From Candidatus Caldarchaeum subterraneum (GTDB lineage: Archaea > Thermoproteota > Nitrososphaeria_A > Caldarchaeales > Caldarchaeaceae), in NCBI GenBank assembly GCA_000270325.1, contig BA000048.1, positions 4,233-36,232 on the forward strand: a stretch of DNA of 32,000 bases, given 5' to 3'. The notes beneath the pieces are model-generated. The model made no database searches and had not been told where the DNA came from. It saw only the letters and a list, made by a program, of their open reading frames with translations. This document shows positions 6,476 to 28,510 of the stretch, piece by piece. Within the stretch, counting starts at the first letter, position 1. Each line of letters starts with the position of its first letter. The translations under genes were made by a program, and so were the position numbers.

Positions 6476-6580
6476 GGGCCCGTGGCGCAGAATGGATAGC
6501 GCGGCGGCCTCCTAAGCCGTAGGTCGTGAGCAGAGGCACAGAAGTGCTCCGCCGATAGGGTTCAAGTCCCACCGGGCCCG
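6476..6580 (+). tRNA. tRNA-Arg (anticodon CCU) with a non-canonical ~30-nt intron in the T-arm
   Basis: Cloverleaf read by eye. Acceptor GGGCCCG/CGGGCCC, D arm GCGC-AGAATGGATA-GCGC, anticodon stem GCGGC/GCCGT, loop CTCCTAA (CCT at 6511-6513), variable AGGTC. The T arm GTGGG-TTCAAGT-CCCAC forms only if about 30 nt (roughly 6528-6557, with an internal GAGCA/TGCTC helix) are removed. No encoded CCA. Confidence 0.8.
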
Positions 6581-16966: not shown

Positions 16967-19900
16967 ATGAGGCTGGATACCGGTTTCTGGGTGTCTAAGG
17001 CTGAGGAGCTTGGCTACCCTGTTAAGATTGAGGAGCTCAGCGTTGATTATCTCAGGGAGAGCGGAGTCTTCCCAAGGGTCCTTAATGTTGTCCAGTCTCT
17101 TCGTTTGTATCTCGATGACTACATAGAGTTTGTCATAATAAGCGTTGATGGTAAAGTATCTAGGGGGCTGTGTACAAGGGTGGCGCGGAGCTGGAAGGAA
17201 AAACGCCTCATCAGACCCCTCCTCATATTCACATCCGGGAAGGATGAGAGCTTCATCGTTACCGTACCGGGTGCAGGCACCGGGGGAGAGGCCAGGGTTC
17301 TACATATCGAAGGCGAGTTCTACAGGACGGATATAGAGGTGATTGAGAGTCTTAGATATAGGGGAGACCCCGAGAATCTAAGAAAGGCATATGACAGCGA
17401 GATGCTGCCCTATGACAAGGTCAGGGAAGAGTTCTTCGAAGGCTACAGGGAGCTGTACGAGAGAATAGTTAAGACGGTGAAGAGTGTTCTGAAAGACAAC
17501 GCATCATCATATGCCCAGCGTTTCCTCGGCCGCCTAATGTTCCTCTACTTCCTGCAGAGAAAGGGCTGGCTAAAAGGGGACAGGAGCTTCATAAACAAGA
17601 TAAACGATTACCTCGAACTCAACCGCCTCTTCTACGAGAGCTTAAACAAGAAAAACGGTGAGGAAGGAATTCCATTCTTAAACGGGTCCTTGTTCGAGCG
17701 GGAAGAATACCTTACCAGCAAGGTTGAGAAGGAATTAGCAATGAAGATGAATTCTATATTCTATGACGCTAGGAACTTCTTCAACAGGTATAATTTCACA
17801 GTCGACGAGACCACCCCACTGGAGGTTGAGGTAAGCATCGACCCTCTTCTACTCGGAACAGTCTTAGAGAATCTGCTGGAGGAGAAAGAGCGCGGTGAGA
17901 AGGGCACCTTCTACACACCTGTGAACGAGATAGGCTTCATGTGTAGGAGGGCGATAGCAGCTTGGCTTGGGCTGGAGGAGGGCGTGCAACAGAGAAATGG
18001 TGAGCTGAGGTTCGTCGACGGGTTGCAACGATACGTGGACGAGCTGAAGAAGCGCAGGGATGAGAGGGAGATAAGAGAGTTCAGGGAGAAGCTTCTCACC
18101 CTCAAGATTCTCGACCCGGCGGTGGGCTCGGGAGGCTTCCTCGTAGTGATGATGCAGACAATTCTACAGCTTATACAGGAGGTGGAGGAGGCTGTTGGCT
18201 GGAAGTCGGACCTAGAGCAGTACAAACGCCGAATAATACCCAACCTCTACGGTTTCGACATAGAGCCGGAGGCAGTGGAGATAGCGAGGCTGAGAATATG
18301 GCTATCCCTCATCGTCGACCAGATGCAACCGGAGCCACTCCCCAACCTAGACCTGAACATAGTCACTATATCGGATTCTTTAGAGCTTCCCCAAGGTGTC
18401 CAGACGGCTTTAGGCGAGTTCGGAAAGGAGCTAGGGTACCTAAGCATAGTGGAGGATATCGAGGCCGTCAAAGCTAGGTATCTCAACGAGCACGACGCTA
18501 CAAAGAAGAATGCGTTGAGGAAGAGGATTGAGGAGCTTAGGCAGGAGTTTGTTAAGCGTACTGGTCTAGCGGTGCGGGCTGGGCCACCTGTCGAATTCTT
18601 CATGCCTAGCTTGGCTGACATCGTGGTGATGAACCCTCCCTACGTTAGACAAGAGAAAATTCCCAAGCTAAAAAAAGACTACTACGTTACTAACTACAAG
18701 CTGGATAAGACCTCTGATATCTATGCGTATTTCATGGTCAGAGCATTAAGGCTACTCAAGTCAGGTGGCGCCGCCGCTTTGATAACATCTGATAAATGGC
18801 TCGAGGTTAACTACGGCAAGACGCTCCAGCAGGTGCTTAAACCCCACATACTTGCCATCTATGGACAGAGGATGAGAAGCTTCCAAGCCGATGTAAACAC
18901 GGTTATAACAGTCCTTAAGAAGGAAGAGCAGCCTAAAGACAAACCCATCCAGTTCATCTACCTAGAGACCTATGGCGGCGAGAAGGTAAGAAACTACAAA
19001 TCAATAGAGAGGGGTAAACTACAGCCCGGAAAATGGTACTATCTTAGGGCGCCGCGGATATTTGAGCAGGTTCTGCTGCCTAAGCTAACCCATAAGCTGA
19101 AAGACTTCGCCGAAATAAGGTTTGGAATTAAGACGGGTGCTAACGAGTTCTTCTACATGAAGGACGTAACACACCTATACGAGGCAGACTACCTAGCAAA
19201 CCCCAGAAGATTCGAGCAATGGGGAGTAAGAGCAAAAACAGCAAAAGAACTACAACAACAAGGACTAATATACATAGAAAACGAAGCAGGAGAAAGATTC
19301 GTAATAGATAGGAAAGATGTGAAACCAATCATAAGAAGCCCAAGAGAGATAAGGAGCTACATAATTAAGGATGTGAGGACCCTATGTCTTTATACAGCCA
19401 ACCCCGGAAGATACACGAGAAAATACATAACATGGGGAGAGCAGCAAGGCCATCATCAAAGACCAACATGCAGAGCAAGAAACCCATGGTGGACACTACC
19501 AGAATTCAAACCAGCACATATTCTGCTACCCATGTCATGGAGAAAGATCATATACATACCATACAGCGAACAACCAGTAATATGTGATGCCAGACTTTAC
19601 GCTTTTTATTCAAAAGAACCAATAAAGACTTGGAAGTATATCAACTCAACAATATTTTTACTAACAGTTGAGCTATTTTGCAGAAGATTGGGCGGAGGCG
19701 GAGCAGCAACTGATATAAAGGTGGAGGATTATGAGGATATGCCTGCACCTAACCTTAACAATCTTATGATTGATTTTCCCGTCGAAATCCTAGCCTCTAA
19801 CGTTCCACTACAATATAGTGATGAAGTTAAACGTGAAGAAAGAAGGATGCTTGATAAGGCCGTTCTCAAAGCTTTAGGATTCCCCGAAAATGAGCTTGAT

Positions 19901-20026
19901 AGGCTTGTTGATGAGCTGCATAGGGCTTTCGTGGAGGTTGTTGAGGATAGGCTTATCAAAGCTGGCCGCCCAATAGTGGAAGATATAGAATCCAAGGAGG
20001 CTGGAGAAGTTGGCGAAGATAATTGA
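16967..20026 (+). CDS. large gamma-class N6-adenine DNA methyltransferase (Eco57I/Type IIG / BREX PglX-like architecture), no obvious nuclease domain
   Basis: 'FLGRLMFLYFLQRKGWL' and 'FLNGSLFE' (helical N-domain typical of Type IIG/PglX-like enzymes). 'TFYTPVNEIGFM', SAM motif 'ILDPAVGSGGFLV' (about 18112-18140), 'YGFDIEPEAVEIARLRIWL', and catalytic 'VVMNPPYV' (NPPY at 18632-18643). The roughly 450-aa C-terminal region is a presumed target-recognition domain. Confidence 0.9.
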   Translation: MRLDTGFWVSKAEELGYPVKIEELSVDYLRESGVFPRVLNVVQSLRLYLDDYIEFVIISVDGKVSRGLCTRVARSWKEKRLIRPLLIFTSGKDESFIVTVPGAGTGGEARVLHIEGEFYRTDIEVIESLRYRGDPENLRKAYDSEMLPYDKVREEFFEGYRELYERIVKTVKSVLKDNASSYAQRFLGRLMFLYFLQRKGWLKGDRSFINKINDYLELNRLFYESLNKKNGEEGIPFLNGSLFEREEYLTSKVEKELAMKMNSIFYDARNFFNRYNFTVDETTPLEVEVSIDPLLLGTVLENLLEEKERGEKGTFYTPVNEIGFMCRRAIAAWLGLEEGVQQRNGELRFVDGLQRYVDELKKRRDEREIREFREKLLTLKILDPAVGSGGFLVVMMQTILQLIQEVEEAVGWKSDLEQYKRRIIPNLYGFDIEPEAVEIARLRIWLSLIVDQMQPEPLPNLDLNIVTISDSLELPQGVQTALGEFGKELGYLSIVEDIEAVKARYLNEHDATKKNALRKRIEELRQEFVKRTGLAVRAGPPVEFFMPSLADIVVMNPPYVRQEKIPKLKKDYYVTNYKLDKTSDIYAYFMVRALRLLKSGGAAALITSDKWLEVNYGKTLQQVLKPHILAIYGQRMRSFQADVNTVITVLKKEEQPKDKPIQFIYLETYGGEKVRNYKSIERGKLQPGKWYYLRAPRIFEQVLLPKLTHKLKDFAEIRFGIKTGANEFFYMKDVTHLYEADYLANPRRFEQWGVRAKTAKELQQQGLIYIENEAGERFVIDRKDVKPIIRSPREIRSYIIKDVRTLCLYTANPGRYTRKYITWGEQQGHHQRPTCRARNPWWTLPEFKPAHILLPMSWRKIIYIPYSEQPVICDARLYAFYSKEPIKTWKYINSTIFLLTVELFCRRLGGGGAATDIKVEDYEDMPAPNLNNLMIDFPVEILASNVPLQYSDEVKREERRMLDKAVLKALGFPENELDRLVDELHRAFVEVVEDRLIKAGRPIVEDIESKEAGEVGEDN

Positions 20027-23000
20027 TAACAAGAAAGAAACCCTAGCATTCGTCCTGAACAAAGAATTCTCCGAAGTAGATGAAATAGCAATAGCGTCCG
20101 CCTACTTCAACGTAAGAGGCTACGGAGCTATAGCGCAGGGTCTTGGAGACAAGCCTATGAAGCTACTCTTGGGGAGGGAGCCAACGGAGACGATAAAATG
20201 GGAAGACGAGATACTTCAAGAGCTTGAGCAGTTTGAGGACGACGCTGATTACTTCCGACTGCTCCAGAAGACAATCCAGTACTTCAAGGATGATAAGCGG
20301 CTGGTTAGGATAATGGAGAGGAGGTTCTTCCACGGAAAGGCCTTCATCGGTGTCTCCCTCGACAAGAAGGAGGTTAGAAGGGGTATAGGTGTGGTTGGTA
20401 GCAGCAACCTCACTTACGGAGGTCTCGTAAGCAACAGAGAGCTAAACATGCTTAACACCGATAGAGAGGTTGTCCAAGAACTAGCTGAATGGTTTGAGGA
20501 GCAGTGGAACCAATCCAGAGACTTCAAGGAAGAATTCATCTCACTACTTAGCAACTATGTAACGTCATGGAGCCCCTATGAAGTGGTGGCGAAAGCACTG
20601 TACGAGACCTACAAGGGAAGCCTAATAGAACGAGAAACAAAAATGCTCAAACATCTTTACCCGCACCAGCAGCTAACCTACATAGACGCAAAGGAGAAGC
20701 TCGAAAAATACGGTGGTGTATTGATAGCAGACTCTACAGGCCTAGGTAAATCGAGGGTAGCGCTAGCCCTAGCCCATGAAGCGATAAGAGAAGGGATACG
20801 CCCCCTCCTCATAGCTCCCAAATCGATACTGGAAACTACATGGGAGGCCGAGATGAACGAGACCCTCGTAAGAATTGACACGCTTTCCACGGAAATGCTC
20901 TCACAAAACCCCGACATAGTAGATGACTATGTTGGAGAAAAAGGGCCAGAGCTAATCATAGTCGACGAAGCCCATTACTTTAGAAGAAGCTCAACCAATA
21001 GATACATAGCTCTAAGAGAGCTGGTAAACAAGAATCAGGCGAAGATAGTGCTGATAACCGCGACACCAGTCAACACCAGCCTCATGGACCTATACTCCCT
21101 CCTAAGCCTATACCTACCAGAGAACTGCATAGCAGACCTAAACCATCAATCACTGTATGAATACTTCGTTACCCAGCAGAGAAGATGGCTAGCTGGAGAG
21201 CCTATAAACATGGACGATATACTGCGCAGATTCATAGTGAGACACTCCAGAGAACTAGCAAAAGCCCTAGATAGAGAAGGAAGGATAAGATTCCCAAAAA
21301 GAGTATTTGACGAAAAGATAGGAAGATACCCCATAACCATAAGCCTTGACGAAATCTACAAAAAACTGGAAAATCTCAGCCTAGCCTTCTACGACCTCTC
21401 GATAGAGAGGCTATCGGCACAATTCAGGCTACCCGACGGAACAAGAATAGAAAAGAAAGACCCAACACAGGTAGAGAACCTGAAAAACCTAGTAAAAACG
21501 ATATTCATAATAAACCTGTTCAAGAGGCTTGAGAGCAGCTACGCAGCCTTCGAAGAGACGTTGAGGAGGATGCTTAGCTACATAAGAGCAGCAAAGCACT
21601 ACGCTACTAAGTTCTCGGTATTCATACCGCCCAAAATGAGGGGAGACATACTTAACCTATTCCCCGATGTGGAAGAGAGGGAGGATGAGATACCGTTCGA
21701 GGAATTCCCAGCACCCGAGGAGCTCTTCTCAAAACCCAGATACAAAGGCCTATACAATGAATGCAAGTTAAGCAAACAGGAAGCCGAGGAATTCGTAGCC
21801 AATTGCTCAAAAGACGAAGAAGCCATAGAATCGCTTCTACGCATGCTACCCAACCACGATGAAAAATACTTCCTACTAGAAAGAAGGCTCCAACAGATTA
21901 TGAAGCAAATCAAAGAGCCCAACGGCGTCATAATCTTTACACAATACGCGGACACTGCCCATTATCTCTACAGAAGGCTGAAGGCTTCGTTCAACCGAGT
22001 GATGCTGGTAACTGGTGCAGGCGGCTATAACGACAAGGGCGAAAAAGCCTTAGAGGACCATATTGTAAGACGATTCCAGAAGGTGGGCGGATTACTCATA
22101 AGCACAGACGTTCTAAGCGCTGGTCAGAACCTACAAAACGCCCAATACGTAGCAAACTATGACTTCCCATGGAACCCTGTAGTACTAATCCAGAGAGTAG
22201 GCCGGATAGATAGAATAGGCTCAAACTACGACATAGTTTATCTAATCAACGTCTTGCCTAGAAACGGCGACCCTGACGACCCAGAGAGCTTGGAACACTT
22301 TCTAGGGCTAATGCAGAGACTATACAAGCGGCTAGAGATGATAAGAGGAACCATTGGATTGGATGCGTCGACGCTTGGCGAGGAGGCTGCGCCTAGGGAT
22401 TTCTCGATACAGGCCATGATAGCGAGAAACGACGAAAGAGTCCTAAAGATACTTGAGCAGAAAATAGAACAGTTCACCAAGGACCCAATAGATATTCTAG
22501 CAAGAATACTTAACGAGAAGGGTTTACAGTGGGTCGAGAGAATCCCTAATGGCATAGGGGCCATAAAGAGGGGCACTTTAAACGGAATTTTCGCGCTTTT
22601 AACCGATGGTGACAATTTTTATTGGCGGCTCCACGTGCTAGACAAGGATAAGGAGAAGATAATCACCTCCCCGACCGAAATAGTAGACCTCTTGTTAGAG
22701 GGAGAGAGTGATAACAGAGGAGAGAAGCTGGAGTATGATAAGCTAATACCTCTCTTGGTCATGGTTAAGGAATCACTTAAGAAGGAGCTCGAGGAAGTCA
22801 TGAGGAGAGAAACCACGGCAATGGGACCCCCAAGAGTAGATAAAAAAACACGCACCGTATTCGACGCGCTGAGCCAGCTCGGCGACGAAGGTGAGCGGCT
22901 AGCCTCGATGTTCCGCAGAGTAGCTTCAAAACCGGCGATAGTTAACCATCTCTACAGAGCATATCTTGAGGGGAAGCTTCTAGAGGAGGCGAGAAAAATA

Positions 23001-23090
23001 CTGCCCAAAGCGGTGCAGGAGATAGCAACAACCAACCCCGAGACAAAGGAGCTAAGACGAGTCTGCTGGTGCTACTTCACAAAAACCTGA
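20010..23090 (+). CDS. PLD-family (single HKD) nuclease domain fused to an SNF2/SF2 helicase
   Basis: N-terminal 'FFHGKAFIGVS...GIGVVGSSNLTYGGLVSNRELN' is an HxK...GSxN PLD motif (H at 20331). Helicase motif I 'ADSTGLGKSRVALAL' (GLGKS at 20739-20753), motif II 'IIVDEAHYFRR' (DEAH at 20964-20975), motif III 'LITATPVNTSLMDLYSLL', motifs V/VI 'STDVLSAGQNLQ...NPVVLIQRVGRIDRIGS'. TTG start, 9 nt after AAGGAGG, overlapping the methyltransferase stop by 17 nt. Confidence 0.9.
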   Translation: MAKIIDNKKETLAFVLNKEFSEVDEIAIASAYFNVRGYGAIAQGLGDKPMKLLLGREPTETIKWEDEILQELEQFEDDADYFRLLQKTIQYFKDDKRLVRIMERRFFHGKAFIGVSLDKKEVRRGIGVVGSSNLTYGGLVSNRELNMLNTDREVVQELAEWFEEQWNQSRDFKEEFISLLSNYVTSWSPYEVVAKALYETYKGSLIERETKMLKHLYPHQQLTYIDAKEKLEKYGGVLIADSTGLGKSRVALALAHEAIREGIRPLLIAPKSILETTWEAEMNETLVRIDTLSTEMLSQNPDIVDDYVGEKGPELIIVDEAHYFRRSSTNRYIALRELVNKNQAKIVLITATPVNTSLMDLYSLLSLYLPENCIADLNHQSLYEYFVTQQRRWLAGEPINMDDILRRFIVRHSRELAKALDREGRIRFPKRVFDEKIGRYPITISLDEIYKKLENLSLAFYDLSIERLSAQFRLPDGTRIEKKDPTQVENLKNLVKTIFIINLFKRLESSYAAFEETLRRMLSYIRAAKHYATKFSVFIPPKMRGDILNLFPDVEEREDEIPFEEFPAPEELFSKPRYKGLYNECKLSKQEAEEFVANCSKDEEAIESLLRMLPNHDEKYFLLERRLQQIMKQIKEPNGVIIFTQYADTAHYLYRRLKASFNRVMLVTGAGGYNDKGEKALEDHIVRRFQKVGGLLISTDVLSAGQNLQNAQYVANYDFPWNPVVLIQRVGRIDRIGSNYDIVYLINVLPRNGDPDDPESLEHFLGLMQRLYKRLEMIRGTIGLDASTLGEEAAPRDFSIQAMIARNDERVLKILEQKIEQFTKDPIDILARILNEKGLQWVERIPNGIGAIKRGTLNGIFALLTDGDNFYWRLHVLDKDKEKIITSPTEIVDLLLEGESDNRGEKLEYDKLIPLLVMVKESLKKELEEVMRRETTAMGPPRVDKKTRTVFDALSQLGDEGERLASMFRRVASKPAIVNHLYRAYLEGKLLEEARKILPKAVQEIATTNPETKELRRVCWCYFTKT

Positions 23091-26682: not shown

Positions 26683-27400
26683 GGTACTGTCAACTTTTAC
26701 TTAAGCTTTTCTGGGTTAGGTCTATGGCCTTGTTTGTCCTTCTTCTTTTATGCATGTCTTCGATTATCTAGTGGAGAGGGTGTCTTCCCTGTTCAGTTTT
26801 CATAATTATTCTCCTCTTGAGAAGGCTTATGCTGTTGTTCTCTATCTAGCAGGTCTCAGCTTGAGGGATATCTCTGAGAGGTATTCCCTAGTCAATGCAT
26901 CTAGGGAGAGCGTCAGGGATTGGGTGCATCATCCCTCTTCAATCCGTCTAAGAGGTTCAGGAGAATTATAGCGGTGGATGAGACGGTGATAACGATCAAC
27001 GGGTATAGGAGTTACATATGGTCAGCTATAGACGTAGATTCGGTCGAGATTTTGGCTATTTACGCCTCTAGAGGTAGGTCGATCCTGAATGCCCTGAGTT
27101 TCCTGAAGACAGTCCTCAAGACCTGCGAGAATAAGCCATTGATAGTAGTTGATAGAGGACGGTGGTATCCATGGGCTTTAAAGAGACTTGGATTGGAATA
27201 CGTACATGAGACCTTCGGTAACAGGAATAGGATAGAGAGGTGGTTCAGGGAACTTAAGGACAGGACTAAGAGGTTCTACAACAACGTGAACTCTAAGGCG
27301 TTGAAGAGCATAGAGGAGTTAGTAAGGGCAATAGCTCTGATACACAACTTAATCCTGAATGCATTTGGAGAAGGAGGTGTAATACCTGGTTGACGGTGCC
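26683..27400 (+). mobile_element. IS6-family-like insertion sequence (~718 bp) with 12-bp terminal inverted repeats and a flanking TCCAGT duplication
   Basis: IRL GGTACTGTCAAC (26683-26694) against IRR GTTGACGGTGCC (27389-27400), 10 of 12 complementary. TCCAGT is immediately outside both ends (26677-26682 and 27401-27406). The transposase stop lies inside the IRR. Size and GG termini fit IS6-type elements. Confidence 0.7.
26750..27393 (+). pseudogene. IS6-like DDE transposase split by a -1 frameshift near 26920-26935
   Basis: ORF 26750..26971 is the HTH-like N-terminus. ORF 26920..27393 carries 'IIAVDETVI...YIWSAIDVDS...VVDRGRWYPWA...NRIERWFRELKDRTKRF', a DDE_Tnp_IS240-like pattern. No slippery heptamer is visible at the overlap. 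Confidence 0.7.
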
Positions 27401-27619: not shown

Positions 27620-28510
27620 ATGTGGTCTACAGATATGTCAAAGGTAGTTAGCTTTATTAACTACAAGGGCGGTGTAGGTAAAACTACTTTGGCTGTGGAG
27701 ATAGCTGCTGCTTTGGCCTACCATCGTGGAAAGAAAGTCCTTCTTGTAGACGCTGACCCACAGACTAACGCAACCTTTTACCTAATAAGTGAAGAGGACT
27801 GGGATGTTTGGCAAAAAAATAAAGGAACTTTGAAAAATATATTCGACAATTATCTGGAAGGCAGGGATACGGACATTAATGAATTGATTATCAAAGATTT
27901 GGAAGTAAGCAGCCGAACACCTAATCTTCATCTTTTACCTTCTCACATAGAGTTAATTCATATCGACCTTAAACTCGCTGGCATATCTGGTTCAAGAGGA
28001 ATTAGAGCTAAAGGCCTGCTTAAAAAAGCTCTTGAAAAAGTCAAGCAAAATTACGATTACGTTATCATAGATTGTCCACCTAATTTAAATCTGGTCACGC
28101 AAAACAGTATTGTTGCAAGTGATAGCTTTATAATTGTTCTTAAACCGGAGTTCCTCTCCACTATAGGTATTGCACTCATTCTTCGCGTTATTAACGATAT
28201 AGTTCGGGAAATCAATGATGAATTCCAGTCCTTTGGATTTAGGGAAGAATTTACTGGTCCTGAATTCTCGGGAATGATATTCAATTTCGTTAAATACTTA
28301 TCCGGTGGAACAAGATCTCAGGAGGTTGTTATCAACGAAGTAAAAAGACAATATCCGGGCAAAGTCTTCAAAAGCTTTCTTTCAGAAAGTGTAAAATTGG
28401 CTGAACGCCCCGTGGAAAAAATTCCTATTTCTATTTCAGGCTTAGCTAGCGACAGGAATTATGAGAATCAGTTGAAGAGTATTGTAGAGGAGTTTTTACA
28501 ACGGGTGTAA
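27620..28510 (+). CDS. parA: ParA/Soj/MinD-family deviant Walker-A ATPase
   Basis: 'INYKGGVGKTTLAVEIA' (the KGGxGKT deviant Walker A), 'LLVDADPQTNAT', 'DYVIIDCPPNL'. The probable true start is the ATG at 27635, about 25 nt downstream of TTTTAAG (27607-27613), consistent with a leaderless mRNA. Confidence 0.9.
   Translation: MWSTDMSKVVSFINYKGGVGKTTLAVEIAAALAYHRGKKVLLVDADPQTNATFYLISEEDWDVWQKNKGTLKNIFDNYLEGRDTDINELIIKDLEVSSRTPNLHLLPSHIELIHIDLKLAGISGSRGIRAKGLLKKALEKVKQNYDYVIIDCPPNLNLVTQNSIVASDSFIIVLKPEFLSTIGIALILRVINDIVREINDEFQSFGFREEFTGPEFSGMIFNFVKYLSGGTRSQEVVINEVKRQYPGKVFKSFLSESVKLAERPVEKIPISISGLASDRNYENQLKSIVEEFLQRV

What the first reader, a model, noticed from the sequence alone, without database searches (positions are those of the whole stretch)
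16967..23090. Compact two-gene module: stand-alone Type IIG/PglX-like N6A methyltransferase translationally coupled to a PLD-nuclease/SNF2-helicase fusion
Seen in the sequence:
- A 1019-aa gamma-class MTase has NPPY, FxGxG and the RLMFLYFLQRKGWL-type helical domain, but I see no PD-(D/E)xK nuclease motif in its N-terminus.
- Its stop overlaps by 17 nt the TTG start of a 1026-aa protein, which is preceded by AAGGAGG.
- That protein combines a single HKD PLD nuclease motif with a complete SNF2/SF2 motor.

Established knowledge:
- Single-HKD nucleases (Nuc, BfiI) must dimerise to act.
- DISARM class 1 combines an SNF2 helicase (DrmD), an adenine MTase (DrmMI) and a PLD protein (DrmC) with DrmA and DrmB.
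- Type III and Type ISP systems couple a MTase to a translocase-nuclease.

Inference: this pair looks like a minimal modification-dependent defence system in which DrmC-like and DrmD-like functions are fused and DrmA/DrmB are absent. It could equally be a Type III-like R-M system whose Res subunit uses PLD instead of PD-ExK. It sits in an IS-rich, compositionally foreign island. It does not match any canonical architecture I can name with confidence.
Basis: partly seen in the sequence, partly recalled or inferred. Interest (0 to 1): 0.75.

Follow-up and report, generated by a model that had tools for sequence, protein, structure and literature searches.

The report
Two-gene methylase plus PLD-SNF2 restriction module
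This archaeal gene pair, a DNA adenine methylase with its own DNA-reading domain followed by a nuclease fused to a DNA-tracking motor, is inherited as a self-contained unit across many archaea and some bacteria and is most likely an unnamed, untested kind of restriction-modification defence system.

Summary
Both ORFs, the 17-nt overlap, the AAGGAGG site and the motifs are real. The window is Candidatus Caldarchaeum subterraneum.

Gene 1 (1019 aa) is an Eco57I/MmeI/PglX-type gamma N6-adenine methyltransferase with a swappable C-terminal specificity region. It has no recognisable nuclease domain. Gene 2 (1026 aa) has one HKD (PLD) nuclease domain, a complete SNF2 motor and a family-specific C-terminal domain.

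I examined 90 related loci. Wherever upstream DNA exists the methylase sits directly upstream, usually overlapping by 4 or 17 nt. No third gene is conserved, so DUF499, DUF3780, DrmA/B and PglZ are absent as partners. Helicase identity tracks the methylase core (r = 0.95) but not the specificity region (r = 0.26). Distant relatives on bacterial and archaeal plasmids (27-29% identity) keep the same pairing.

Best reading: a two-subunit ATP-dependent restriction-modification system. It works like Type III or a split Type ISP, but with a PLD nuclease and an SNF2 motor.

It is not a member of DISARM, BREX, Hma/BR or Type IIG. The adjacency has been mentioned once in passing, and I found no named or tested system. 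This is a new variant of a known kind, of moderate interest. The "IS-rich" claim is not supported.

The parts
16967..20026 (+). Gene 1: 1019-aa gamma-class N6-adenine DNA methyltransferase with its own specificity region (the 'Mod-like' subunit)
   Evidence: ORF and translation. Pfam Eco57I, MmeI_Mtase and N6_Mtase. PADLOC best hit REase_MTase_IIG 8.7e-51, aligned only from aa 148 onward. 100% identical to a Ca. Caldarchaeum subterraneum protein.
16967..17356 (+). Methylase N-terminal alpha/beta domain (aa 1-130), family-specific, function unknown; not a recognisable nuclease
   Evidence: AF2 model with pLDDT 90. No PDB or viral fold match, no Pfam hit at E<=1, no PDB sequence hit. D50, E54, E108 and D122 are conserved; positions 90 and 110 covary.
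17531..17572 (+). RLMFLYFLQRKGWL helical-domain motif (aa 189-202)
   Evidence: Translation. Nearly invariant in 114 homologues.
18113..18133 (+). SAM-binding motif I, DPAVGSG (aa 383-389)
   Evidence: D383-L392 is invariant apart from A385, which is nearly invariant.
18632..18643 (+). Catalytic motif IV, NPPY (aa 556-559)
   Evidence: invariant.
19064..19816 (+). Approximate C-terminal region (aa ~700-950) that holds the variable, exchangeable specificity segment (about aa 790-950)
   Evidence: Low conservation at aa about 800-900. Mosaic identity against the same-genome paralogue: 94-96% around a 38% segment. L005 has a 96-99% identical helicase but only 36-47% identity in this segment. Identity here is decoupled from helicase identity, r = 0.26. 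Weak M_Eco57I_C hit, E = 0.001.
19994..20000 (+). Shine-Dalgarno-like AAGGAGG inside the end of gene 1, 9 nt before the TTG start of gene 2
   Evidence: Sequence.
20010..20026 (+). 17-nt overlap of the gene 1 stop and the gene 2 start (translational coupling)
   Evidence: Across 43 full-length loci the junction overlaps by 4 nt in 15 and by 17 nt in 9; 31 of 43 overlap or abut.
20010..23090 (+). Gene 2: 1026-aa PLD(HKD) nuclease / SNF2 translocase fusion (the 'Res-like' subunit)
   Evidence: ORF and translation. Pfam PLDc_2, SNF2-rel_dom and Helicase_C. PADLOC C3a139 'HKD+Snf2' 2.3e-48. 100% identical to a Ca. Caldarchaeum subterraneum protein.
20010..20534 (+). Single PLD/HKD nuclease domain (aa 1-175), with H108-x-K110 at 20331-20339 and GSSN at 20397-20408
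   Evidence: The nearest solved relative is the PLD domain of PDB 7CLG ('putative helicase', E = 3.3e-9), then Zucchini/MitoPLD, BfiI and Nuc.
20739..20975 (+). SNF2 motor lobe 1 from Walker A to the DEAH box: Walker A GLGKS (aa 244-248, nt 20739-20753), DEAH box (aa 319-322, nt 20964-20975)
   Evidence: Invariant columns.
21888..22220 (+). SNF2 motor lobe 2 (Helicase_C, aa 627-737), including QRxGRxDR (aa 728-735)
22302..23087 (+). Family-specific C-terminal domain (aa 765-1026), ending in a nearly invariant RxCWC motif (kept in 41 of 43 full-length loci)
   Evidence: Conservation. AF2 pLDDT 71 with no PDB match and no Pfam hit. Only 192 representatives among 1.84 billion proteins; in full-length proteins of about 1000-1200 aa it sits at or near the C-terminal end.

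Best explanation
The pair is a self-contained, two-subunit, ATP-dependent restriction-modification system.

- Subunit M (gene 1) reads a short DNA sequence through its exchangeable C-terminal specificity region. It methylates an adenine (N6) there, marking host DNA as self. This is inferred from family membership.
- Subunit R (gene 2) has no recognisable sequence-reading domain. It is made in fixed proportion to M by translational coupling.
- I infer that R is recruited by M bound at unmethylated sites. The family-specific N-domain of M and the C-domain of R are candidate contact surfaces.
- The SNF2 motor then tracks along double-stranded DNA using ATP.
- Each R carries only one HKD motif, so two R subunits must pair their PLD domains to form one active site. 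This could be a constitutive dimer or two complexes that meet. They then cut foreign DNA at a distance from the site.

Shown here: domain content, intact catalytic residues, strict co-inheritance, coupling, specificity-region shuffling and defence-island context.

Inferred: complex formation, translocation, dimer-dependent cleavage and protection by methylation.
For: - Gene pairing: in 90 related loci (39-96% helicase identity) the methylase lies immediately upstream on the same strand wherever upstream DNA is present. There is one divergent exception.
- Junctions: 31 of 43 overlap or abut.
- No conserved third gene. Large flank ORFs include a minority of other defence genes (GmrSD, McrBC, OLD-type ATPases, Schlafen), each in 2-4 of 46 ORFs, and no recurrent DUF499, PglZ or DUF1998.
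- Co-evolution: helicase identity against methylase core gives r = 0.95. Against methylase aa 790-900 it gives r = 0.26. Pairs with a helicase at least 80% identical have only 57% mean identity in that segment.
- The same genome has a second copy with a mosaic specificity region.
- Catalytic residues of the PLD, the SNF2 motor and the methylase are invariant or nearly so.
- The PLD domain is nearest to nuclease-type PLDs: 7CLG, Zucchini, BfiI and Nuc.
- The methylase lacks any detectable nuclease domain. The same is true of the methylases paired with distant PLD-SNF2 relatives.
- The pairing persists at 27-29% identity on plasmids of Deinococcus, Nostoc, Microcystis, Halalkalicoccus, Rhodococcus and Thermococcus.
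Against: - No experiment exists: no methylation motif, no cleavage assay and no protection assay.
- The methylase N-domain has four conserved acidic residues (D50, E54, E108, D122) and an E-x-K/R in a predicted strand. A cryptic nuclease of its own is therefore not excluded.
- The M-R interaction is inferred only from coupling and co-evolution. I could not model the complex.
- SNF2 plus methylase pairs also occur in BREX, DISARM and ARMADA, whose mechanisms are not simple restriction.
- A few relatives have split methylase genes beside intact helicase genes. This could be assembly error, or a sign that R is harmless without M.
Confidence: 0.62

Rival explanations
1. Gene 1 is a complete Type IIG/IIL restriction-modification enzyme whose N-terminal domain is a divergent nuclease. 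The PLD-SNF2 protein is an auxiliary second-layer effector, not the sole nuclease.
For: The best PADLOC hits for gene 1 are Type IIG models. The N-domain is confidently folded. It has conserved D50, E54, E108 and D122, plus an E108-x-K/R110 in a strand.
Against: The Type IIG profile aligns only from aa 148, so the profile's nuclease part is not matched. There is no Pfam, PDB-sequence or fold match to any nuclease. The lysine position is arginine in half the family and covaries with position 90, which looks structural rather than catalytic. Strict co-inheritance and coupling with an intact PLD nuclease is hard to explain if that nuclease were optional.
Confidence: 0.15
2. A BREX/DISARM-like system that blocks foreign DNA replication or acts by a non-canonical route. 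The methylase marks self, and the SNF2 protein acts mainly as a remodeller or sensor rather than through translocation-coupled cleavage.
For: The methylase is nearest in sequence to BseCI and to PglX/BrxX among solved structures. The helicase scores against DrmD, BrxH and HmaA models.
Against: All scores are far below family cut-offs: BREX-1 PglX 76 against 500 bits and DrmD 127 against 610 bits. No PglZ, BrxC, DrmA/B or DUF499 partner occurs recurrently in the loci. The HKD nuclease residues are invariant.
Confidence: 0.13
3. Not a defence system. The pair could be an epigenetic or genome-maintenance module, for example regulatory methylation plus a repair or remodelling helicase-nuclease.
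For: SNF2 proteins often act in transcription and repair. RapA and archaeal Rad54-like proteins are among the PDB sequence hits. No phenotype is known.
Against: Patchy distribution with different flanks in each lineage and no conserved neighbours. Two divergent copies sit in one genome. The specificity region shuffles. The pair occurs on plasmids next to other defence genes such as viperin, GmrSD-like DUF262, AbiEii and SLATT. In this window it lies in a low-G+C block of ORFans beyond a tRNA-Pro gene.
Confidence: 0.05

Closest known systems
Type III restriction-modification (Mod + Res, e.g. EcoP15I)
   Same: Two genes in mod-then-res order with translational coupling. The methylase subunit carries the specificity determinant. 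The second subunit is an SF2 ATPase fused to a nuclease and has no recognition domain of its own. Pfam ResIII matches helicase lobe 1.
   Different: The methylase is gamma-class Eco57I/MmeI/PglX-type, about 1000 aa, with a C-terminal specificity region. It is not a beta-class Mod. The motor is SNF2-type. The nuclease is an N-terminal single-HKD PLD, not a C-terminal PD-(D/E)xK.
Type ISP enzymes (LlaGI, LlaBIII)
   Same: Same functional parts: nuclease, translocase, gamma-methylase and specificity domain. The predicted behaviour is 'half a Type I enzyme' (described in PMC3874165).
   Different: The parts are split into two polypeptides and the gene order is reversed. The nuclease is PLD instead of Mrr-like. 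No Type ISP structure appears among the PDB sequence hits of either protein.
Type-2 BREX-related (BR) / Hma systems (DUF499 ATPase + N6-methylase + HKD-Swi2/Snf2 helicase + DUF3780; PMC12839542)
   Same: N-terminal HKD nuclease fused to a Swi2/Snf2 helicase, working beside an N6-adenine methylase in an R-M-like logic.
   Different: No recurrent DUF499 or DUF3780 partner: nothing in the ORFs flanking the pair in the window, and no conserved third gene across 90 related loci. The methylase here is Eco57I/PglX-type with its own specificity region; the related DUF499 operon is described with a COG1743 methylase in PMC7641849. The HmaA model matches only helicase lobe 2.
DISARM class 1 (DrmA, DrmB, DrmC PLD, DrmD SNF2, DrmMI)
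   Same: An SNF2 helicase, a PLD nuclease and an Eco57I-like adenine methylase occur together.
   Different: DrmA/DrmB (YprA helicase plus DUF1998), the defining core, are absent from all loci. DrmD scores 127 bits against a cut-off of 610. PLD and SNF2 are one polypeptide here.
SauUSI-type PLD-helicase restriction enzymes (I identify PDB 7CLG, deposited as 'putative helicase', as SauUSI from my own knowledge)
   Same: An N-terminal single-HKD PLD nuclease fused to an SF2 ATPase. It is the closest solved relative of the PLD domain, E = 3.3e-9.
   Different: SauUSI is a single-protein Type IV enzyme that targets modified cytosine through its own C-terminal reader and has no partner methylase (own knowledge). 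Here a methylase partner is obligatory and the C-domain is unrelated.
CglI / NgoAVII (PLD-family R subunit + SF2 H/N subunit + methylase; PMC5861437)
   Same: ATP-dependent restriction that uses a PLD nuclease together with an SF2 motor and a separate methylase.
   Different: In those systems the PLD protein carries the DNA-recognition domain and the motor is a separate DEAD-Z1 protein. Their methylases are cytosine-C5 enzymes (own knowledge). A few relatives of the present system (L036, L043, L066) do insert an extra stand-alone PLD protein between the two genes.
Type IIG/IIL enzymes (MmeI, Eco57I) and BREX PglX/BrxX
   Same: Methylase core, helical spacer motif and C-terminal specificity-domain layout.
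   Different: No MmeI_N or other nuclease domain. No BREX partners. BREX PglX models score 76-77 bits against cut-offs of 500-900.

Membership tests
Type IIG restriction-modification enzyme | Gamma-class N6-adenine methyltransferase core with a C-terminal specificity domain in one polypeptide | tested here: met
   Eco57I, MmeI_Mtase and N6_Mtase hits. Motif I is at aa 383, ahead of NPPY at aa 556. The C-terminal region is variable.
Type IIG restriction-modification enzyme | Endonuclease domain (normally an N-terminal PD-(D/E)xK) in the same polypeptide | tested here: not met
   The Type IIG profile aligns only from aa 148. The N-domain has no Pfam hit at E<=1, no PDB sequence hit and no fold match. 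The K/R110 and D/N90 covariation is atypical of a catalytic site. A novel nuclease fold is not formally excluded.
Type III restriction-modification | Two subunits: a methylase carrying specificity, plus an SF2 ATPase-nuclease that depends on it | tested here: inconclusive
   The architecture and coupling fit. The dependence of R on M is inferred, not shown.
Type III restriction-modification | Beta-class Mod methylase, and a Res subunit with a C-terminal PD-(D/E)xK nuclease | tested here: not met
   The methylase has gamma-class motif order and belongs to the Eco57I family. The nuclease is an N-terminal PLD.
Type ISP restriction-modification | Single polypeptide: Mrr-like nuclease, translocase, methylase, specificity domain | tested here: not met
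   Two separate ORFs in all loci, with a PLD nuclease.
DISARM class 1 | DrmA (YprA-type helicase) and DrmB (DUF1998) core genes | tested here: not met
   No conserved third gene in 90 loci. No DUF1998 among the recurrent families in flank ORFs. The ORFs flanking the pair in the window have no such hits.
DISARM class 1 | DrmD equivalog score | tested here: not met
   NF038317 scores 127.4 bits against a cut-off of 610. NF038318 scores 80 bits against 950.
BREX | PglZ and BrxC/PglY partners, and a PglX equivalog score | tested here: not met
   No recurrent PglZ/BrxC-type partner: none in the ORFs flanking the pair in the window, none among the recurrent families in related loci. BREX_1_MTaseX scores 76 bits against 500.
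Hma / Type-2 BREX-related (BR) system | DUF499 AAA+ ATPase and DUF3780 genes in the locus | tested here: not met
   Not recurrent next to the pair here or in related loci. These features are defined in PMC12839542.
Hma / Type-2 BREX-related (BR) system | N-terminal HKD nuclease fused to a Swi2/Snf2 helicase | tested here: met
PLD(HKD)-SNF2 fusion family (PADLOC C3a139 'HKD+Snf2') | End-to-end similarity of the PLD plus SNF2 architecture | tested here: met
   PADLOC C3a139 at 2.3e-48 covers aa 67-781 of the protein and positions 76-765 of the 948-position profile. C3a139 was defined as a protein family found next to type III CRISPR-cas cassettes (PMC6546367). That is a family label, not a system.
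NCBIfam 'phospholipase D-like domain-containing anti-phage protein' (NF042964) | Equivalog score cut-off | tested here: not met
   136 bits against a cut-off of 1100.

The most novel reading that the evidence does not exclude
The pair could represent a distinct, uncharacterised class of ATP-dependent restriction-modification system found in archaea and bacteria.

- A nuclease-less Type IIG-like methylase/specificity subunit would dock, through a previously unseen N-terminal fold, onto a PLD-SNF2 motor-nuclease with its own private C-terminal domain.
- The short junction between the two genes would serve as an insertion site for accessory defence genes. OLD ATPase, HEPN, an extra PLD, DUF365, DUF262, NTase+SLATT and AbiEii are seen there in relatives.
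- If so, many 'Type IIG' calls made by automated pipelines would in fact be the methylase halves of two-subunit enzymes.
Probability: 0.45. Interest if true: 0.65.

Novelty: new variant of a known kind. Interest (0 to 1): 0.55.

Why it matters
If confirmed, this adds a new subunit composition to the ATP-dependent restriction enzymes. It would pair an SNF2 motor and a PLD nuclease with a Type IIG-like methylase that supplies specificity.

- It would give a thermostable system, with only two proteins, for studying how a single-HKD nuclease is assembled by DNA translocation.
- It would correct annotation. HMM-based tools label the methylase alone as a 'Type IIG R-M enzyme', yet it shows no nuclease domain.
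- It would explain a recurrent unnamed gene pair in archaeal defence islands and on cyanobacterial, Deinococcus and haloarchaeal plasmids.
- The exchangeable specificity region and the two copies in one genome make it a natural case of specificity diversification.

Tried and rejected
- Structure searches led nowhere. The methylase N-domain model (pLDDT 90) has no PDB or BFVD match with E<=0.001. The helicase C-domain model is only moderate (pLDDT 71) and also has no match.
- A profile search with the N-domain against the 5.8-billion-protein set returned only gene fragments of the same family.
The alignment-based metagenome scan was much more productive.
- The IMG/VR scan found no viral carrier, only one generic helicase hit.
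- Rejected: DISARM, BREX and Hma/BR membership, because partner genes are absent and scores are below cut-off.
- Rejected: a second HKD repeat in the helicase. There is one PLDc_2 stretch only.
- Rejected: programmed inversion or phase-variation cassettes in the window. There are no repeats of 40 nt or more.
- Rejected: the 'IS-rich' description.
- Rejected: an RNA gene as the cause of the G+C spike at 15.0-15.8 kb. There is no Rfam hit. It holds a short-motif array instead.
- Six full-text literature searches found no named or tested two-gene system of this composition. The only trace is a table entry in PMC9881135 noting Cj0031-like Type II R-M genes next to a PLD+SNF helicase gene.
- REBASE and the system-level rules of DefenseFinder and PADLOC could not be queried.

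Full report
**Observation**

The two ORFs are exactly as described: 16967..20026 (+, 1019 aa, ATG) and 20010..23090 (+, 1026 aa, TTG). The first ORF's TGA stop is at 20024-20026, so the ORFs overlap by 17 nt. AAGGAGG lies at 19994-20000, 9 nt before the TTG. Homologues start MxKIIDN at the same place, so the TTG start is real. Both proteins are 100% identical to proteins of Candidatus Caldarchaeum subterraneum, whose genome is 1.68 Mb.

**Gene 1, the methylase**

- Pfam finds Eco57I (1.3e-29), MmeI_Mtase and N6_Mtase.
- Motif I (DPAVGSGGF, aa 383) precedes NPPY (aa 556), and the variable region is C-terminal. This is the gamma-class layout.
- PADLOC's best models are Type IIG enzymes, then PglX. 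The best Type IIG profile aligns only from aa 148, so the profile's nuclease part is unmatched.
- BREX PglX equivalogs score 76-77 bits against cut-offs of 500-900.
- Among solved structures, BseCI, PglX/BrxX, CamA and MmeI match the catalytic core only.

**The methylase N-terminal domain**

I modelled aa 1-165 with an alignment of 21 homologues. The model is confident (pLDDT 90) and shows an alpha/beta domain followed by helices. It has no PDB or viral fold match at E<=0.001. It also has no Pfam hit at E<=1 and no PDB sequence match.

D50, E54, E108 and D122 are conserved. An E108-x-K/R110 sits at a predicted strand. However, position 110 is K or R about equally often, and it covaries with position 90 (N with K, D with R). 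The window protein has S90 and R110. This pattern looks structural, not like a PD-(D/E)xK active site. A novel nuclease cannot be formally excluded.

**Gene 2, the nuclease-motor fusion**

- There is one PLDc_2 domain, followed by SNF2-rel_dom and Helicase_C.
- H108, K110, GSSN130-133, E144, Walker A K247, DEAH319-322 and QRxGR728-732 are kept in 40 of 43 full-length loci. The three exceptions are one DESH for DEAH and two variants of the C-terminal CWC; none touches the HKD, Walker A or motif VI residues.
- A profile of the PLD domain finds PDB 7CLG first (E = 3.3e-9). This entry is deposited as 'putative helicase', and I believe it is SauUSI. Zucchini/MitoPLD, BfiI and Nuc follow, so this is a nuclease-type PLD.
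- The last 260 residues form a family-specific domain ending in a nearly invariant RxCWC motif (41 of 43 full-length loci). It has no Pfam or fold match.
- An exhaustive profile search finds this domain in only 192 of 1.84 billion representatives. In full-length proteins of about 1000-1200 aa it sits at or near the C-terminal end.
- PADLOC's best hit is 'C3a139 HKD+Snf2' at 2.3e-48. That family was first listed as a neighbour of type III CRISPR-cas cassettes (PMC6546367).
- DrmD, HmaA, BrxH and the NCBIfam 'phospholipase D-like anti-phage protein' all score far below their cut-offs.

**Are the two genes a unit?**

I gathered 90 loci that encode relatives of gene 2 at 39-96% identity. They comprise 8 from genomes, 2 for the paralogue and 80 from metagenomes.

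- Wherever upstream DNA is present, a relative of gene 1 (30-85% identity over the part present; 45-85% where most of the gene is present) lies directly upstream on the same strand. The one exception, L033, is divergently oriented.
- Among 43 loci with both genes full-length, 31 junctions overlap or abut. Overlaps of 4 nt (15 loci) and 17 nt (9 loci) are the commonest.
- All-against-all clustering of every ORF of 80 aa or more found no third gene shared beyond near-identical contigs.
- Forty-six large flank ORFs showed no recurrent DUF499, PglZ or DUF1998. A minority were other defence genes, such as GmrSD, McrBC, OLD-type ATPases and Schlafen, each in 2-4 of the 46.
- Pairwise identity of the helicase correlates with that of the methylase core at r = 0.95. 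With methylase aa 790-900 the correlation is only r = 0.26.
- Pairs whose helicases are at least 80% identical average 86% identity in the methylase core but 57% in that segment, with a minimum of 31%.
- Locus L005 has a 96-99% identical helicase but only 36-47% identity across methylase aa 800-950.
- The same genome carries a second copy (methylase P0128, helicase P0025), also with a 17-nt overlap. Its methylase is 94-96% identical to gene 1 over aa 700-800 (92% over 801-850) and 89-96% over aa 900-1000, but only 38% over aa 851-900.

Together these results show an exchangeable specificity module that sits on the methylase.

**Distant relatives**

Plasmid-borne PLD-SNF2 proteins at 27-29% identity align almost end to end with the family profile. 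They occur in Deinococcus, Nostoc, Microcystis, Halalkalicoccus, Rhodococcus and Thermococcus. Where the upstream gene could be scanned (five of the six), it is an Eco57I-family methylase of 1060-1345 aa with no detectable nuclease domain; the Thermococcus upstream gene is annotated only as a DNA methyltransferase.

The two genes are sometimes separated by 1-3 accessory genes: DUF262, nucleotidyltransferase plus SLATT, AbiEii or hypothetical genes. The archaeal loci show the same habit. Inserts there are an extra stand-alone PLD protein (L036, L043, L066), an OLD-like ATPase-TOPRIM (L007), HEPN (L057, L058) and DUF365 (L033).

Enterococcus plasmids carry a relative whose HKD is lost. It is embedded in a DUF4391 plus Mod plus Res cluster. 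No viral contig carries the pair.

**Mechanism**

- Shown: domain content, intact catalytic residues, strict co-inheritance, coupling, specificity-region shuffling, and a defence-island or plasmid context.
- Inferred from established knowledge of these families: the methylase reads a short site and methylates one adenine. The PLD-SNF2 subunit has no reader of its own, so it is recruited by the methylase at unmethylated sites. SNF2 motors track along duplex DNA using ATP. A single HKD motif gives half an active site, as in Nuc and BfiI, so two R subunits must pair to cut.
- In logic this resembles a Type III enzyme or a split Type ISP enzyme. The difference is a swapped motor (SNF2) and a swapped nuclease (PLD).
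- I rate this reading at about 0.62.
- Rivals: a true Type IIG enzyme with a cryptic nuclease plus an auxiliary effector (0.15), a BREX/DISARM-like non-canonical mechanism (0.13) and a non-defence role (0.05).

**Comparison with known systems**

- Membership of Type IIG fails on the nuclease domain.
- Membership of Type III fails on methylase class and on nuclease type and position.
- Membership of Type ISP fails because the system is two polypeptides with a PLD nuclease.
- Membership of DISARM, BREX and Hma/BR fails because partner genes are absent and scores are below cut-off.
- The closest described architecture is the HKD-Swi2/Snf2 effector of Type-2 BR systems (PMC12839542). The related COG1743-DUF499-SNF2-nuclease operon is also close (PMC7641849). 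Both require a DUF499 ATPase, and the latter operon is described with a COG1743 methylase rather than an Eco57I/PglX-type one.
- The only literature trace of this exact pairing that I found is a table in PMC9881135. It notes Cj0031-like Type II R-M genes adjacent to a gene encoding PLD (cd09178) plus SNF helicase domains.
- No named or tested system turned up in six full-text searches.
- REBASE and system-level DefenseFinder or PADLOC rules could not be consulted. An existing name there would lower the novelty rating.

**Genomic context in the window**

- Housekeeping genes (DnaJ, DnaK, glycosyltransferases, an oxidoreductase) run up to 12.6 kb.
- A tRNA-Pro gene lies at 12593-12668 on the minus strand.
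- Next come a KaiC-like gene, ORFans and the gene pair. Further on lie more ORFans, one IS240-type DDE fragment (26920-27393) and a ParA-like ATPase.
- G+C drops from 0.50-0.56 to 0.36-0.50 from about 16.4 kb onward.
- The region is plausibly an integrated element or a defence island. It is not 'IS-rich'.

**Verdict**

This is a new variant of a known kind, an ATP-dependent restriction-modification system. It is widespread in thermophilic archaea and present on bacterial plasmids. It is experimentally untouched as far as I could find. Interest: 0.55.

Noticed in passing
window 15460-15780 (+): A G+C spike reaches 0.76. It holds 8 same-strand copies of the short motif CAC(AA)GGGCA(A/G)G, spaced about 27-82 nt apart. 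The window has 13 hits against 2.4 expected, and 8 of them lie here. There is no Rfam match, and the overlapping ORFs have no Pfam hit. The array looks like iterons or a binding-site array, about 1.2 kb upstream of the methylase gene.
   Followed up: partly
window 12593-12668 (-) and 12.7-31 kb: A tRNA-Pro gene marks the boundary between housekeeping genes and a block of ORFans. That block includes the gene pair, an IS240 DDE fragment (26920-27393) and a ParA-like ATPase (27620-28510), and its G+C is lower from about 16.4 kb. It may be an integrated element. No integrase or flanking repeat was found.
   Followed up: partly
window 6476-6580 (+): Rfam reports a 105-nt tRNA match (41 bits) that ARAGORN did not call. 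It may be an intron-containing archaeal tRNA.
   Followed up: no
L036 8911-9945, L043 3467-4609, L066 7300-8415: In three related loci a third gene sits between the methylase and helicase genes. It encodes a 344-380-aa stand-alone PLD protein (HxK..D, GSSN) with an unassigned C-terminal half. This recalls the R subunits of CglI and NgoAVII. The helicase's own HKD stays intact in these loci.
   Followed up: partly
L007 7989-10004; L057 6245-6982 and L058 6894-7631; L033 7667-8146; L091, L094 and L096 junction regions: The methylase-helicase junction repeatedly hosts unrelated accessory defence genes. Archaeal loci carry an OLD-like ATPase-TOPRIM, HEPN or DUF365. Plasmid relatives carry DUF262, nucleotidyltransferase plus SLATT, or an AbiEii toxin. 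The junction behaves like an insertion hotspot.
   Followed up: partly
L093 2170-11168 (Enterococcus faecium plasmid NZ_CP027401.1): A distant relative of the helicase has lost the HxK motif. It sits in a four-gene cluster with DUF4391, a site-specific DNA methyltransferase and a DEAD/DEAH helicase, which looks Type III-like. The same cluster occurs on many Enterococcus and Lactobacillales plasmids.
   Followed up: no
window 16967-20026 compared with paralogue P0128 (same genome): The two methylase paralogues of one genome are mosaic. Identity is 94-96% over aa 700-800 (92% over 801-850) and 89-96% over aa 900-1000. It falls to 38% over aa 851-900 and to 28-44% over aa 450-550 and the N-terminus. 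This suggests recombination or gene conversion between the copies.
   Followed up: partly
L001 6968-10017; L024; L026; L044; L062: In several related loci the methylase gene is split by a frameshift or stop, and in L044 it appears to lack about 290 internal residues, while the helicase gene is intact. This could be assembly error, decay or phase variation. If real, it implies the helicase-nuclease is harmless without a working methylase/specificity subunit.
   Followed up: no
L009 4851-5651 (paralogue locus): The second copy of the system in the same genome lies next to a Cas_APE2256 (CARF-type) gene. This fits the original listing of the HKD+Snf2 family (C3a139) as a neighbour of type III CRISPR-cas cassettes.
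   Followed up: no
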